Sequence record: MK327943.1
Strand: one strand, 5' to 3'
Origin: Escherichia phage vB_EcoM_G53
Length of the DNA: 64,000 nt
Position numbers and translations under genes: made by a program. The notes beneath the pieces were generated by a model, which did not search any database, was not told the DNA's origin, and was given only the letters and a program-made list of their open reading frames with translations. This document shows positions 26,684 to 30,347 of the stretch, one piece after another; the first letter of the stretch is position 1, and each line of letters begins with the position of its first letter.

Positions 26684-27052
26684 TTATGCAACTTTAATCC
26701 AATTGTCTAAGTTTAAAACACCTTTGGCTTTCATTTTTTCTATCAGGTTATCTGCTGTAATGCGTCCATTTTGATACCATGTAACATCTTCAGAGTAACC
26801 AGTTTCTTCGTCAACATATGTTTCTGAACGAATTTTACCGGTAATAATAGTTTTTAATTCATATGTGTCACCTGTGAAAAAGTTTGCTAACACAATTTTC
26901 CAAGAGAAATCATCTGAAGGACCTTCAGGGGTCATACAACCTACGAACTCAAATTGCTCTTTGTATAACATCCACTGGAATTCTTTAATTTCGATAGCTT
27001 TATAACCATCGTGGTCTTTACATTTGATGTATGAGTTCAGATTGATTTTCAT
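26684..27052 (-). CDS. Hypothetical protein
   Basis: 122-aa ORF with upstream early promoter. Confidence 0.6.
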   Translation of the reverse strand: MKINLNSYIKCKDHDGYKAIEIKEFQWMLYKEQFEFVGCMTPEGPSDDFSWKIVLANFFTGDTYELKTIITGKIRSETYVDEETGYSEDVTWYQNGRITADNLIEKMKAKGVLNLDNWIKVA

Positions 27053-27093: not shown

Positions 27094-27123
27094 TATAGTA
27101 ACACATCCTACAGGAGAGTAAAC
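27094..27123 (-). promoter_or_regulatory. Early promoter (minus)
   Basis: GTTTAC...TACTAT. Confidence 0.45.
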
Positions 27124-27159
27124 ATCTTTTTAAACTTTTTCTGCCCTAAACGCACAAAA

Positions 27160-27177
27160 GGGAGACCGAAGTCTCCC
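27160..27177 (-). terminator. Terminator hairpin after 59-aa basic ORF
   Basis: GGGAGAC-CGAA-GUCUCCC followed by UUUUGUG on minus strand. Confidence 0.55.
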
Positions 27178-27182
27178 TAAAA

Positions 27183-27362
27183 TTATGCAACAACCTTTCC
27201 AAAACGAGAAGCATCATCTCGAAGAACTGCACGTGCTCTGCGCATGATCTTCTCAACTGTTTGATTAATACGAGAGTTCGACCCACGCTTGTATCCAGCG
27301 CGTTTAGAGGTACCATCAACTTTCTTTTCAACTGCTTTCTTTGCTTTAGCTTGTTTTGCCAT
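27183..27362 (-). CDS. Hypothetical 59-aa highly basic protein (MAKQAKAKKAVEKK...)
   Basis: ATG ORF not in track; K/R-rich; ends just before terminator hairpin 27160-27177. Confidence 0.4.
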   Translation of the reverse strand: MAKQAKAKKAVEKKVDGTSKRAGYKRGSNSRINQTVEKIMRRARAVLRDDASRFGKVVA

Positions 27363-27657
27363 TATAAATTCTCTTTAAATGAAAATGCAGGACTTATTGA
27401 CATTGCCTGCGCAAGCCCTCAAGGGGAACATAGGTTTTGGATATTTAACGACAGGATAACCATAAACCCGTCATCATACCAACCACGACTTAGACAGATA
27501 ACCTTTTTCTGACGCGTGATAGTACAAAATACATTCAAGAGGTACACCGTAAAACTGCCGGGGCCTTAAAACTATAATGATTCGCAAATCATTAATCAGA
27601 CAGTTCGACGGCTCCTCGATTTTCTAGCCGCACTTAAGGTAGCGAATCACCTAAAAC
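27363..27657 (-). other. 295-bp ORF-free region between rIII and the 59-aa basic ORF (candidate noncoding RNA or regulatory region)
   Basis: No ORF >35 codons on either strand in an otherwise tightly packed region; contains 7-bp inverted repeat GATTCGC...GCGAATC and GC-rich palindromes. Confidence 0.3.
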
Positions 27658-27906
27658 TTATTTAAGGGTAATAACAAAATGACGTACTGCTTTACGAGCT
27701 GCAGAAGCCAAAGGCTTAGCATATTTCAGTTCATCTTTTGCTTCCAGTTCAGAGGCCAAAGCTGCCTGTACCGGGTTCAGATGTTTGAAATAATGCAGGA
27801 TTTCCAGTGCTTCGGCTTCAACATCAATCGACGCGCCGTAGTTTTCGTGACCGTTATTCCATGCGTTTCGTTGCAGTTCAAGAGCGTGTTGTAATTGTTT
27901 AATCAT
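27658..27906 (-). CDS. rIII: rIII lysis-inhibition accessory protein
   Basis: 82 aa as in T4; sequence agrees with recalled T4 rIII; position upstream of gene 31. Confidence 0.85.
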   Translation of the reverse strand: MIKQLQHALELQRNAWNNGHENYGASIDVEAEALEILHYFKHLNPVQAALASELEAKDELKYAKPLASAARKAVRHFVITLK

Positions 27907-28022
27907 TTTAAATTCTCAATTCGAGATAATATTTAGTAGCCACGTTCGTCTGAATTTCACCTTCTTTCGACAAGTCTCTCAGTTGTAGGCTACCGCTTAG
28001 AAGAGTGTTCTCTTCATATAGT

Positions 28023-28729: not shown

Positions 28730-29300
28730 AAAAGTTTCGGATTTGTTCCCAATTCAGAGAACGAAGATTATTACGAGAGTACTGAATTACTTCAATACCG
28801 GCTTGTTTTAGAATGTCTGCCCAATTTTCAGGAGATCGGTCGTATAATTCTGCATATACAACCTTTTTAATACCTGACTGTGTAATAGCTTTAGTGCAAT
28901 CAGGACACGGAGAAAGCGTCGTATATAACGTAGCACCTTCAATAGAATTACCTTTACGAGCTGCAAATAAAATTGCATTCAGTTCAGCATGGATTTCATT
29001 ATTAGCAGACCATGCACTATGAGCGGCCCGATGTTCTTTAGCCAAAACAAAATTATCCACCCGTCCAAATGCTGTAGTGCCTTCTTTATGCCCAGCAACG
29101 ATGACCGGGCTTGGTTTATTCTTCAACCAACCGTTTTCGGATGCATGTTCGCAACAGTTTGTACCACCTGAAGGAGAGCCATTATAACCTGTAGAAATAA
29201 TGCGTCCATCTTTTTCAATGACGGCACCAACTTTCCATGAACAACATTTTGATTCTTGAGAAATCAAATAAGCAATTTGAAGATATGTGCTAGCTTTCAT
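28719..29300 (-). CDS. cd: dCMP deaminase
   Basis: 193 aa; matches recalled T4 Cd; HAELNAI and SPCPDC zinc-binding motifs. Confidence 0.95.
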   Translation of the reverse strand: MKASTYLQIAYLISQESKCCSWKVGAVIEKDGRIISTGYNGSPSGGTNCCEHASENGWLKNKPSPVIVAGHKEGTTAFGRVDNFVLAKEHRAAHSAWSANNEIHAELNAILFAARKGNSIEGATLYTTLSPCPDCTKAITQSGIKKVVYAELYDRSPENWADILKQAGIEVIQYSRNNLRSLNWEQIRNFCGE

Positions 29301-30347
29301 TATTGAACCTTATTAATATAAGTTAACAGCTCTTTAGTTTGTTCCCAACTGATGCACGCATCGGTAACGGAAACGCCATAGGACATATTATCAGAAATTT
29401 TTTGATTTCCTTCATGTAGGAATGATTCTATCATAATTCCTTTGACCAAATCATTAGCTGCTAAATTTTTACCAATACCAATTTGATTGCTATAATGCCC
29501 ATCAGCGTTTGCATGGCTACAGTCAACCATTACATAATGATTCAGACCTACTGCACTTGCTTTGTTAGAAGCTTCTTGAATATCAGAAGAATGATAGTTG
29601 ACCTACTGCACTTGCTTTGTTAGAAGCTTCTTGAATATCAGAAGAATGATAGTTCGGGCCGTTGGTCCCGCCACGCAATACGATATGCGTATTCTGATTA
29701 CCTTCAGCTTCAACAATGCCTACAGTACCATCGACGTCCATACCCATATACCGATGAGGCCAGGCGGCACTATACATCGCGTCTGTAGCTACTTTAATAG
29801 AACCATTGGTTGCGTTCTTGAAGCCTACGCACATCGGTAGACCTGAAGCAATTTCACGATGTGTCTGACTTTCAGTCGTACGGGCGCCAATAGCAACCCA
29901 TGAGAAAATACCAGAAAGATACTTAATCGTGAATGGGTCTAATACTTCAGTTGCTAATGGAAGTCCCATACGTAGAAGTTTACGACACAATGTTCGTGCA
30001 ACTATAAGACCGTGGTTCATATCAAAACTTCCGTCAAGATATGGATCATTTACAAGACCTTTCCAACCTACGGTAGTTCGAGGCTTTTCAAAATAAACGC
30101 GCATCACTAACAGAACATTAGGAAGACGAGTTTGAAGTTCAGCCAGACGTTTGCCGTATTCAACAGCAGCAATAGGGTCATGAATTGAACAAGGACCTAC
30201 AACAATAAGTTTGCGTGGGTCTTCACCGTTCATAATCGAATTAACTTGTTCGCGATGAGAAGCCACTTGTGATGCGTAAGCTTCCGACAAAGGAATAATC
30301 TCAGCCAGTTCTTTTGGAGAAATAAGTTTTCTGACGACAGGTAACAT
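29300..30347 (-). pseudogene. AroG-type 3-deoxy-7-phosphoheptulonate (DAHP) synthase, interrupted by a 55-bp tandem duplication
   Basis: N-terminal ORF 29583-30347 carries GPCSIHD, MRVYFEKPRTTVGWKGL, GARTTESQ motifs; C-terminal ORF 29300-29530 carries SHANADG...ESFLHEGNQ...SVTDACI; removing one repeat copy joins them in frame. Confidence 0.8.
29545..29654. repeat. Exact 55-bp tandem duplication (2 copies: 29545-29599 and 29600-29654)
   Basis: Direct reading of sequence; unit gacctactgcacttgctttgttagaagcttcttgaatatcagaagaatgatagtt. Confidence 0.95.

What the first reader, a model, noticed from the sequence alone, without database searches (positions are those of the whole stretch)
27183..27362. 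Unannotated 59-aa lysine/arginine-rich protein next to the ORF-free island
An ATG ORF absent from the supplied track (<60 aa) encodes MAKQAKAKKAVEKKVDGTSKRAGYKRGSNSRINQTVEKIMRRARAVLRDDASRFGKVVA, which is very basic like small nucleic-acid-binding proteins. It is followed immediately by a strong terminator hairpin. The overlapping track ORF (27146-27331) uses a TTG start and reads through the terminator, so it is less plausible.
Basis: seen in the sequence. Interest (0 to 1): 0.4.

Follow-up and report, generated by a model that had tools for sequence, protein, structure and literature searches.

The report
T4 gene 30.9 ortholog, small basic protein
The 59-codon reading frame is a real gene, the counterpart of phage T4's already catalogued but functionally unknown early gene 30.9, so it is a known gene that a 60-codon cut-off hid, not a new discovery.

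Summary
Window 27183-27362 on the minus strand encodes exactly the 59-aa peptide quoted (pI 11.35, net charge +13). An AGGGAGAC-UUCG-GUCUCCCU hairpin with a U-run starts 4 nt after the stop codon.

The gene is not unannotated in public records. The window is a T4-like phage (99.8% identical to vB_EcoM_WFK), and the ORF is the ortholog of T4 gene 30.9 (PHROG 1427, E=2e-31). It keeps the conserved position rIII - gap - 30.9 - terminator - 30.8.

Coding is well supported:
- The frame is open in about 40 loci.
- All nucleotide indels are multiples of three.
- Variability runs 3rd > 1st > 2nd codon position.
- dN/dS is 0.09-0.71.

The rival TTG ORF has stops in other genera.

Published T4 data give an early transcript, no protein detected by proteomics, and a non-essential gene in two genome-wide screens.

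The product has no Pfam, NCBIfam, PADLOC or PDB relative. AlphaFold2 gives a disordered basic N-terminal arm and one amphipathic helix. The invariant residues are mostly basic (SKRAGYKR...N.R).

Binding of nucleic acid or another polyanion is the best guess, but it is untested.

Novelty: already known. Interest: low.

Side observation: the neighbouring ORF-free island is a mosaic of conserved cassettes, and one of them is a hairpin with covariation.

The parts
27183..27362 (-). CDS, 59 aa; ortholog of T4 gene 30.9 (PHROG 1427). Stop TAA at 27183-27185, ATG at 27360-27362.
   Evidence: ORF list and translation. PHROG 1427 E=2.4e-31. T4 30.9 annotation and synteny. dN/dS 0.09-0.71. Indels are multiples of 3 and variability is 3rd>1st>2nd codon position.
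27371..27375 (-). Shine-Dalgarno-like AAGAG, 8 nt upstream of the ATG.
   Evidence: Read from the sequence. A purine-rich element at the same distance is present in all orthologous loci.
27375..27377 (-). In-frame TAA 15 nt upstream of the ATG. It excludes the N-terminally extended (97-aa, '11.1 kDa') model given for T4 in UniProt P17310.
   Evidence: Sequence. The 97-aa T4 model is P0005. All other genera start at MAK/MSK.
27148..27178 (-). Intrinsic terminator: AGGGAGAC-UUCG-GUCUCCCU (27159-27178) followed by UUUGUGCGU.
   Evidence: Fold. A hairpin plus U-run follows the stop in every Tevenvirinae locus, with different stem sequences: GGGAGAC/GTCTCCC, GAGGACTCC/GGAGTCCTC, GGGAACC/GGTTCCC, GGGGCTCC/GGAGCCCC.
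27095..27122 (-). Early-promoter-like TTTACT-N16-TACTAT serving gene 30.8. Together with the hairpin it forms a PeSL-type terminator/promoter cassette.
   Evidence: Sequence. It fits the PeSL consensus TTTACW...TAYWAT reported for the PST/T4 pair in PMC4122927. GTTTAC follows the hairpin in most orthologous loci.
27363..27657 (-). 295-nt ORF-free spacer between rIII and 30.9, presumably the 30.9 leader / rIII 3' region. It is a mosaic of cassettes: E 27619-27651, D 27528-27618, D2 27480-27527, B 27432-27479, C 27363-27431.
   Evidence: Cassette mapping over 40 loci. Covariation of the B hairpin. No Rfam match. Overall folding energy is not unusual, z=-0.55.
27658..27906 (-). Upstream neighbour rIII (lysis-inhibition accessory protein), 82 aa.
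   Evidence: PHROG 1457 E=8e-43; annotations.
26684..27052 (-). Downstream neighbour, gene 30.8 homolog, 122 aa.
   Evidence: Pfam PF06019 Phage_30_8 E=7e-44.

Best explanation
SHOWN. The ORF is a genuine protein-coding gene, the ortholog of bacteriophage T4 gene 30.9. It lies at the end of the rIII-30.9 stretch. It has its own SD-like site and ATG, and it is closed 4 nt after its stop by an intrinsic terminator. That terminator, with the following TTTACT-N16-TACTAT promoter of gene 30.8, forms a PeSL-type cassette.

FROM PUBLISHED T4 DATA. The transcript is early. The protein escaped shotgun proteomics. The gene is dispensable in laboratory infection.

INFERRED. The product (6.6 kDa, +13, pI 11.35) has no globular fold. 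It has a Lys/Ala-rich disordered N-terminal arm, an invariant basic core S-K-R-A-G-Y-K-R-x-S-N-x-R, and one strongly amphipathic C-terminal helix (about residues 31-54).

The most likely mechanism is that the basic arm and core bind a polyanion, RNA or DNA, and fold on binding. The helix would provide self-association or docking. This would make it an accessory early modulator of nucleic-acid transactions, not an enzyme or structural protein.

Identity as the 30.9 gene: about 0.97. Nucleic-acid binding as the mechanism: about 0.4.
For: Identity and coding:
- PHROG 1427 E=2.4e-31.
- tblastn finds the frame in 1006 phage records.
- T4 30.9 has the same position between rIII and 30.8.
- The ORF is open and 53-64 aa long in all Tevenvirinae loci.
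- Nucleotide alignment of 33 distinct CDS gives gap runs of 3, 6, 9, 15 and 21 only. Variable columns are 40/32/54 of 60 at codon positions 1/2/3.
- dN/dS is 0.09-0.71 in all 28 pairs.
- The alternative frame is closed in other genera.

Terminator. PeSL consensus.

Expression and dispensability in T4:
- Class_Tx early, Class_P NA (PMC9697503 Table S2).
- CRISPRi-ART 'Not Fit' (PMC11879866 supplement).
- HIDEN-SEQ 6 of 6 sites hit, 'Non-essential' (bioRxiv 10.1101/2025.11.20.689424 supplement).

Mechanism:
- All 70 aligned family members have net charge +10 to +24 and pI 10.5-12.0.
- The invariant or near-invariant residues after M1/A2 are K3, S19, K20, R21, G23, Y24, K25, R26, N29, R31 and R44. 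Specific basic, Tyr and Asn positions are conserved, not just composition.
- AF2 with 26 and with 70 sequences gives one confident helix and a low-confidence N-terminus.
- Helix hydrophobic moment is 0.77, permutation p=0.005.
Against: - No similarity to any known DNA- or RNA-binding family in Pfam, NCBIfam or the PDB.
- No binding experiment was found in the searchable literature.
- High positive charge is also typical of peptides that bind acidic proteins, membranes or ribosomes.
- Gene neighbourhoods outside the T4 group are heterogeneous and give no functional hint.
- Translation has not been confirmed by mass spectrometry in T4. A Lys/Arg-rich 58-aa protein yields almost no usable tryptic peptides, so this is weak negative evidence.
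Confidence: 0.5

Rival explanations
1. gp30.9 acts on a host or phage protein, not on nucleic acid. The amphipathic helix docks into a hydrophobic groove and the basic arm contacts an acidic surface. Examples would be inhibiting a host factor or defence protein, or modulating the ribosomal protein S1 / RegB axis in which its neighbour RIII works.
For: - The only confidently predicted element is an amphipathic helix with an a/d-like hydrophobic stripe.
- It is an early, non-essential accessory gene, as are many T4 host-takeover and anti-defence genes.
- Adjacency to rIII is constant throughout Tevenvirinae, and RIII binds ribosomal protein S1 (PMC9409239).
Against: - No partner is known.
- No PADLOC hit, though that library covers defence systems, not anti-defence proteins.
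- In distant relatives the gene occurs without rIII: PspYZU05, L052, phage 7-11 and metagenomic contigs.
- The invariant residues are mostly basic and lie outside the helix.
Confidence: 0.25
2. gp30.9 is a ribosome-associated peptide: a small basic protein that folds onto rRNA, like the short bacterial ribosomal proteins, and tunes translation early in infection.
For: - Size, pI, and disorder until bound resemble small ribosomal proteins.
- Its neighbour gene product RIII targets ribosomal protein S1 (PMC9409239).
- In phage 7-11 the homolog sits in a tRNA region.
Against: - No match to any ribosomal-protein family in Pfam or NCBIfam, nor to any ribosomal chain in the PDB.
- No tRNA genes lie near the gene in the other contexts.
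- The idea rests on analogy only.
Confidence: 0.12
3. The ORF is not translated. The conserved sequence is an RNA element or a chance ORF, or the overlapping 61-aa TTG ORF (27146-27331) is the real gene.
For: - ORFs of this size and basicity occur by chance in this AT-rich window: 6 of 50 ORFs of 50-70 aa have pI >= 11.3.
- The protein was not detected in T4 proteomics.
- The stretch TCTAAACGCGCTGG.TACAAGCGTG is unusually invariant even at synonymous sites.
Against: - Indels are only multiples of three, third-position variability is in excess, and dN/dS is below 1 in every pair.
- The ATG and SD-like site are conserved.
- Protein-level homologs down to about 30% identity exist in unrelated phages.
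- The TTG frame carries stops in six other genera and runs through the terminator.
Confidence: 0.03

Closest known systems
Bacteriophage T4 gp30.9 (NP_049823, gene T4p212; PHROG 1427; UniProt P17310 'Uncharacterized 11.1 kDa protein in Gp30-rIII intergenic region')
   Same: Same gene. About 93-96% identical over 58-59 aa, with the same position between rIII and 30.8, the same SD/ATG context and the same terminator arrangement.
   Different: One extra residue (D16/G17 region) and a different C-terminal tail (KVVA vs KQKA). The window has a 295-nt spacer with cassette D2, while T4 has 244 nt without it.
PeSL cassettes (promoter-early stem-loop) of T4-type phages (Arbiol et al. 2010, PMC2839356; Comeau et al. 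2014, PMC4122927)
   Same: The hairpin after 30.9, followed within about 35 nt by TTTACT-N16-TACTAT, fits the described composite terminator/early-promoter motif (TTTACW...TAYWAT).
   Different: This concerns the gene's boundary, not the protein. Spacing is 16 rather than 17 if the hexamer is taken as TTTACT. No transcript mapping was done here.
Basic-region plus amphipathic-helix DNA binders (bZIP-like architecture) and Lys/Ala-rich histone-like tails
   Same: The architecture is alike: a disordered, highly basic segment directly N-terminal to an amphipathic helix with an a/d-like hydrophobic stripe, plus an N-terminal AKxAKAKK tract.
   Different: No sequence relationship was detected. The hydrophobic stripe covers only about two heptads. 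The bZIP signature (N-x7-R/K in a long continuous helix) is absent. This is a resemblance of architecture recalled from general knowledge, not membership.
Small basic ribosomal proteins (e.g. bS21, bL34-bL36) and phage-encoded bS21
   Same: Size, charge, and lack of an independent fold.
   Different: No profile match in Pfam, NCBIfam or the PDB.

Membership tests
T4 gp30.9 family (PHROG 1427) | Significant profile match over the full length | tested here: met
   phrog_1427 E=2.4e-31, residues 1-57 on profile positions 11-66 of 75. phmmer hits to named gp30.9 proteins.
T4 gp30.9 family (PHROG 1427) | Genomic position between rIII and 30.8 on the same strand in Tevenvirinae | tested here: met
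   The window order is 31 - rIII - 30.9 - 30.8. The same order holds in T4, IME08, LilPanda, PM2, Proteus, AS6, Moon, Cronus and CHI14, and rIII is immediately upstream in 38 of 40 further loci.
T4 gp30.9 family (PHROG 1427) | Conserved core S-K-R-A-G-Y-K-R-x-S-N-x-R-[IV]-[ND] followed by a helix with R-A-R | tested here: met
   Window residues 19-33 are SKRAGYKRGSNSRIN, and R42-A43-R44 are present.
T4 gp30.9 family (PHROG 1427) | Early transcription; dispensable in laboratory infection | not testable with these tools
   Known only for T4 itself: early transcript (PMC9697503) and non-essential.
Rho-independent terminator / PeSL cassette | GC-rich hairpin followed by a U-run directly after the stop codon | tested here: met
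   8-bp stem with UUCG loop, then UUUGUG. Conserved in all Tevenvirinae loci with different stem sequences.
Rho-independent terminator / PeSL cassette | Early promoter TTTACW-N17-TAYWAT just downstream of the stem-loop | tested here: met
   TTTACT-N16-TACTAT at 27122-27095, against the consensus quoted from PMC4122927. Function was not tested.
Known DNA/RNA-binding protein families (HU/IHF, H-NS, HTH, RHH, Hfq/CsrA/ProQ-like, cold-shock, ribosomal proteins) | Profile match to a curated family | tested here: not met
   Pfam best E=0.14 for the window protein. No family is matched by more than 2 of 25 members. NCBIfam shows nothing consistent.
SlmA / TetR C-terminal domain | Significant similarity beyond one helix; N-terminal HTH domain | tested here: not met
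   Only a 25-26-residue helix aligns, with E=0.1-0.2 in a PDB-sized database. There is no HTH. SlmA-like proteins are absent from the 18 hits of the 1.84-billion-protein search.
Anti-phage defence components (PADLOC) | Profile match | tested here: not met
   0 of 25 members match.

The most novel reading that the evidence does not exclude
gp30.9 could be the protein half of a small phage RNA-protein module. In this reading the basic arm recognises one of the conserved, covarying hairpins of the adjacent ORF-free leader, for example the GGUUAUC-loop hairpin at 27432-27479. Binding would autoregulate its own translation or control processing of the rIII-30.9 early transcript, in the manner of ribosomal-protein leaders or T4 gp32/RegA. 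This would give a function to a gene conserved in more than 1000 T4-like genomes and would define a new RNA element.
Probability: 0.1. Interest if true: 0.55.

Novelty: already known. Interest (0 to 1): 0.2.

Why it matters
As a discovery it matters little. The gene has been catalogued since the T4 genome annotation and appears in hundreds of records as 'hypothetical protein' or '30.9'.

There are three practical lessons:
- A 60-aa ORF cut-off hides real, conserved phage genes.
- The 58/59-aa model, not the 97-aa UniProt model or the TTG ORF, is the one supported by comparative data.
- Some records carry a wrong automatic name, '1,4-alpha-glucan branching enzyme'.

Biologically, gp30.9 belongs to the large set of conserved, early, non-essential T4 genes of unknown function. 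Its family extends to unrelated large virulent phages, such as Salmonella phage 7-11 and metagenomic contigs. A function would therefore be of general interest to phage biologists, but nothing here makes it directly testable beyond standard binding assays.

Tried and rejected
- **Rfam.** Searches at a permissive threshold, on the window region and on nine related loci, gave nothing for the ORF or the island. The BSR0709 and PhrS hits at 27149-27275 are terminator-type chance matches far below gathering score.
- **Protein family libraries.** Pfam, NCBIfam and PADLOC gave no family.
- **PDB sequence and profile search.** The only hit is one helix of E. coli SlmA (RINQLFERIEAQLRQVLRE vs RINQTVEKIMRRARAVLRD; E=0.1-0.2). 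I treat it as a chance match between amphipathic Arg-rich helices. It is not significant and does not appear in the 1.84-billion-protein search.
- **AlphaFold2.** Two runs, with 26 and 70 sequences, gave a single helix. I did not run a fold search because a lone helix gives meaningless matches.
- **Bacterial homologs.** Several distant homologs sit beside ferritin, PagP, HMG-CoA reductase or shufflon-like genes, which first suggested bacterial chromosomes. A pattern scan of 185,579 species genomes found no confirmed relative, and the other neighbours are phage-like. The family therefore looks phage-restricted, though only one peptide pattern was tested.
- **Constant link between 30.9 and an upstream non-coding region.** This is not general. 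PspYZU05 and L052 have gaps of 89 and 22 nt after gene 31.
- **tRNA or tmRNA in the window island.** None was found.
- **Promoter inside the island.** Only a weak GTGTAC-N17-TACTAT candidate at the D/D2 junction. It is absent from T4 (which lacks D2) and from L014 (which lacks D), so it is not conserved.
- **Island folding.** Whole-island folding energy is not unusual, z=-0.55. The leader next to the SD is also not unusually stable.
- **Literature.** No functional study of gp30.9 is in the held library. Driukas & Nivinskas 2003 (Biologija), on in vivo expression of rIII and 30.9, is cited in PMC9409239 but is not held. Miller et al. 2003 (PMC150520) is not held.

Full report
**1. What is in the sequence**

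The window carries an ATG ORF of 59 codons at 27183-27362 on the minus strand. Its translation is exactly the one quoted. The product is 6.56 kDa, has pI 11.35, and contains 18 K+R against 5 D+E.

An SD-like AAGAG lies 8 nt upstream of the ATG. An in-frame TAA lies 15 nt upstream.

Four nucleotides after the TAA stop, the mRNA forms AGGGAGAC-UUCG-GUCUCCCU followed by UUUGUGCG. The consensus scanner missed this terminator.

The 61-aa TTG ORF at 27146-27331 is on the same strand in another frame and runs through the hairpin.

An ORF of this size and charge is not improbable in itself. The window has 50 ATG ORFs of 50-70 aa in six frames, and 6 of them have pI >= 11.3. The case rests on comparison with other genomes.

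**2. Where the window comes from, and which gene this is**

The 1.8 kb around the ORF is 99.8% identical to Escherichia phage vB_EcoM_WFK and 99.6% identical to Shigella phage JK45. In all, 861 T4-like records match.

In those records the same 180-nt CDS is annotated as WFK_00206 and JK45_00216, 'hypothetical protein'. WFK also annotates the terminator.

In T4 itself the gene is 30.9, at NC_000866 130364-130540, 'gp30.9 conserved hypothetical protein'. It lies between rIII and 30.8. IME08 names it 30.9 as well.

The flanking genes in the window are 30.8 (Pfam PF06019, E=7e-44), rIII (PHROG 1457, E=8e-43) and gene 31. The ORF matches PHROG 1427 at E=2.4e-31 and matches no Pfam family.

tblastn finds the frame in 1006 phage records. 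Some of these carry an evidently wrong automatic name, '1,4-alpha-glucan branching enzyme'.

**3. Is it coding?**

- In about 40 further loci from IMG/VR and GenBank the frame is open. It starts with MAK/MSK and is 53-64 aa long in Tevenvirinae.
- A nucleotide alignment of 33 distinct CDS has internal gap runs of 3, 6, 9, 15 and 21 nt only.
- Variable columns are 40/32/54 of 60 at codon positions 1/2/3, and 25/18/37 of 40 in the core.
- Pairwise dN/dS is 0.09-0.71 in all 28 comparisons.
- The frame of the TTG ORF contains stops in IME08, LilPanda, PM2, the Proteus phage, AS6 and Moon.
- The 97-aa N-terminally extended model used by UniProt for T4 (P0005) is closed in the window by the upstream TAA and is not shared by other genera.

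The 59-aa ATG model is therefore the supported one.

**4. Boundaries**

A GC-rich hairpin with a U-run follows the stop codon in every Tevenvirinae locus. The stems differ in sequence: GGGAGAC/GTCTCCC, GAGGACTCC/GGAGTCCTC, GGGAACC/GGTTCCC and GGGGCTCC/GGAGCCCC.

In the window the hairpin is followed by TTTACT-N16-TACTAT (27122-27095). This fits the early-promoter part of the PeSL motif, TTTACW...TAYWAT, described for T4-type phages (PMC4122927).

The 'strong terminator' is thus the stem-loop of a terminator/promoter cassette that ends the 30.9 transcript and starts 30.8.

**5. What is known experimentally (T4)**

- Table S2 of PMC9697503 lists 30.9 with an early transcript class and 'NA' for the protein class, meaning not detected. 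That is unsurprising for a Lys/Arg-rich 58-mer in tryptic proteomics.
- CRISPRi-ART knock-down guides for 30.9 are 'Not Fit' (PMC11879866 supplement).
- HIDEN-SEQ recovered insertions in 6 of 6 sites and calls the gene non-essential (bioRxiv 10.1101/2025.11.20.689424 supplement).
- I found no functional study.

**6. The protein**

A profile search of 1.84 billion representative proteins returns only 18 clusters, all small basic proteins apart from one spurious repeat protein. A word-seeded profile search returns 156 clusters.

The family reaches beyond T4-like phages:
- Pseudomonas phage PspYZU05.
- An Aeromonas-type phage, L052.
- Salmonella phage 7-11 of the Grimontviridae, whose annotators already noted the similarity to gp30.9.
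- Metagenomic contigs whose neighbours are phage-like or auxiliary genes.

One peptide-pattern scan of 185,579 bacterial and archaeal species genomes confirmed no relative.

All 70 aligned members carry net charge +10 to +24. Apart from M1 and A2, the invariant or near-invariant positions are K3, S19, K20, R21, G23, Y24, K25, R26, N29, R31 and R44.

AlphaFold2 gives one confident helix (about 30/34-54, pLDDT 84-91) and a low-confidence N-terminal half, with either 26 or 70 sequences. The helix is strongly amphipathic, with muH 0.77 and p=0.005 by permutation.

No Pfam, NCBIfam, PADLOC or PDB family matches. The single recurring PDB hit, one helix of SlmA at E about 0.1, is treated as chance.

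**7. Mechanism**

Shown: a real, conserved gene with its own translation signals and terminator.

Taken from T4 data: early and dispensable.

Inferred: a peptide that is disordered alone, with position-specific conservation of basic, Tyr, Asn and Gly residues and one amphipathic helix. It most plausibly folds on a polyanionic partner. RNA or DNA is the simplest candidate, at about 0.4.

Alternatives:
- Docking on a host or phage protein, about 0.25. One version is a role in the S1/RegB circuit of its constant neighbour RIII (PMC9409239).
- Ribosome association, about 0.12.
- A non-coding or chance ORF is essentially excluded.

**8. Context noticed on the way**

The 295-nt ORF-free spacer between rIII and 30.9 is not random filler. 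Across 40 loci it is 120-416 nt long. It is built from cassettes (E, D, D2, B, C in the window) that occur in different combinations and orders. Other phages add or substitute a cassette of about 145 nt, 'A'.

Cassette B is a hairpin, AUGAUGACGGG[UUUAUGGUUAU]CCUGUCGUU. Two of its base pairs switch cleanly with no mispairs: UA:9/AU:8/GC:1 and CG:13/GC:5. Its covariation score is 0.313 against 0.088 in shuffles and at most 0.086 in slid controls.

The frequent U-G pair favours the sense-strand RNA. The loop motif GGUUAUC recurs in cassette D2.

The leader hairpin that precedes 30.9 in Moon-type phages occurs in the window upstream of rIII instead, at 27919-27996. These leaders therefore shuffle between genes.

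Nothing in Rfam matches. Whether gp30.9 has anything to do with these RNA elements is pure speculation, and the gene occurs without them in distant phages.

**9. Verdict**

The choice of the ATG ORF over the TTG ORF is right. 'Unannotated' is an artefact of the 60-aa threshold. 'Nucleic-acid-binding' is plausible but unproven.

The feature is an already known gene of unknown function, and its interest is low. The adjacent island is the more unusual object.

Noticed in passing
window 27363-27657 (- strand sense); cassettes E 27619-27651, D 27528-27618, D2 27480-27527, B 27432-27479, C 27363-27431: The ORF-free island between rIII and 30.9 is a mosaic of conserved cassettes. Across about 40 T4-like loci they occur in different combinations and orders, and island length ranges from 120 to 416 nt. 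No Rfam family matches, and whole-island folding energy is ordinary.
   Followed up: partly
window 27432-27479 (-): Cassette B is a conserved hairpin with a conserved loop, (U)GGUUAUC. Two stem pairs show clean compensatory changes (UA/AU/GC and CG/GC, no mispairs in 18 distinct sequences). The covariation score is 0.313 against 0.088 in shuffles. A second GGUUAUC hairpin lies in cassette D2. Function is unknown.
   Followed up: partly
window 27919-27996 (-), upstream of rIII; compare L048/L009 (phage Moon) just upstream of its 30.9: A structured leader of about 78 nt (closing stem GUAGCC/GGCUAC around UACAACUGAGAGACUUGUCGAAAGAAGGUGAAAUUCAGACGAACGU) precedes rIII here. In Moon-, LilPanda- and AS6-type phages it precedes 30.9 instead, with a different closing stem (GGGAGC/GCUCCC). 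Leader cassettes move between genes.
   Followed up: partly
L048:1-152 of its island (phage Moon); also L019-L021, L027-L031, L041, L043, L045, L047, L049, L051; absent from the window: A non-coding cassette 'A' of about 145 nt is 83-99% conserved across genera that are otherwise much more divergent. It has at least one compensatory hairpin change (UAUACA/UGUAUA vs UACACA/UGUGUA in Cronus). In some Tequatroviruses it lies on the other side of rIII. No Rfam match.
   Followed up: partly
window 27612-27615 (-): The island has a single GGAG (in CGAGGAGCC), conserved in the window, T4 and IME08. GGAG is the core of RegB endoribonuclease sites, so this could be a processing site between the rIII and 30.9 messages.
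   Followed up: no
window 29545-29654: An exact 55-bp tandem duplication (two identical copies) lies inside the phage DAHP synthase gene. Relatives WFK and JK45 have one copy and an intact 993-nt CDS. Here the gene is split into ORFs of 254 aa (29583-30347) and 76 aa (29300-29530). This is a frameshifted pseudogene, a recent mutation or an assembly artefact.
   Followed up: yes
window 29300-30347 (-): This T4-like phage carries an AroG-like 3-deoxy-7-phosphoheptulonate (DAHP) synthase gene next to cd (dCMP deaminase). It is annotated as phospho-2-dehydro-3-deoxyheptonate aldolase in JK45 and is an auxiliary metabolic gene absent from T4 at this position.
   Followed up: no
L011:1233-1943 (Salmonella phage 7-11, NC_015938): The gp30.9 homolog of this unrelated phage follows a 711-nt ORF-free stretch. 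The stretch contains two tRNA-like T-arm/acceptor ends (GGTTCGAATCC..., GGTTCGACTCC...CCGCTCCA) that ARAGORN does not call, and a weak sub-threshold match to permuted tmRNA (RF04321, 29.6 bits, E=0.006). A tRNA-Cys lies 250 nt downstream.
   Followed up: partly
window 27258-27305 (-), codons 17-32 of 30.9: The stretch GGTACCTCTAAACGCGCTGGnTACAAGCGTGG is almost invariant at the nucleotide level, including synonymous sites, across genera whose flanking codons have diverged. This could reflect codon preference, recombination or an overlapping RNA or DNA signal.
   Followed up: no
public records (e.g. OR352946, OL964745, LR597660; UniRef entry for Klebsiella phage PMBT63): Several database records name this 58-68-aa protein '1,4-alpha-glucan (glycogen) branching enzyme, GH-13-type'. 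This is an evident annotation-pipeline error that is propagating.
   Followed up: no
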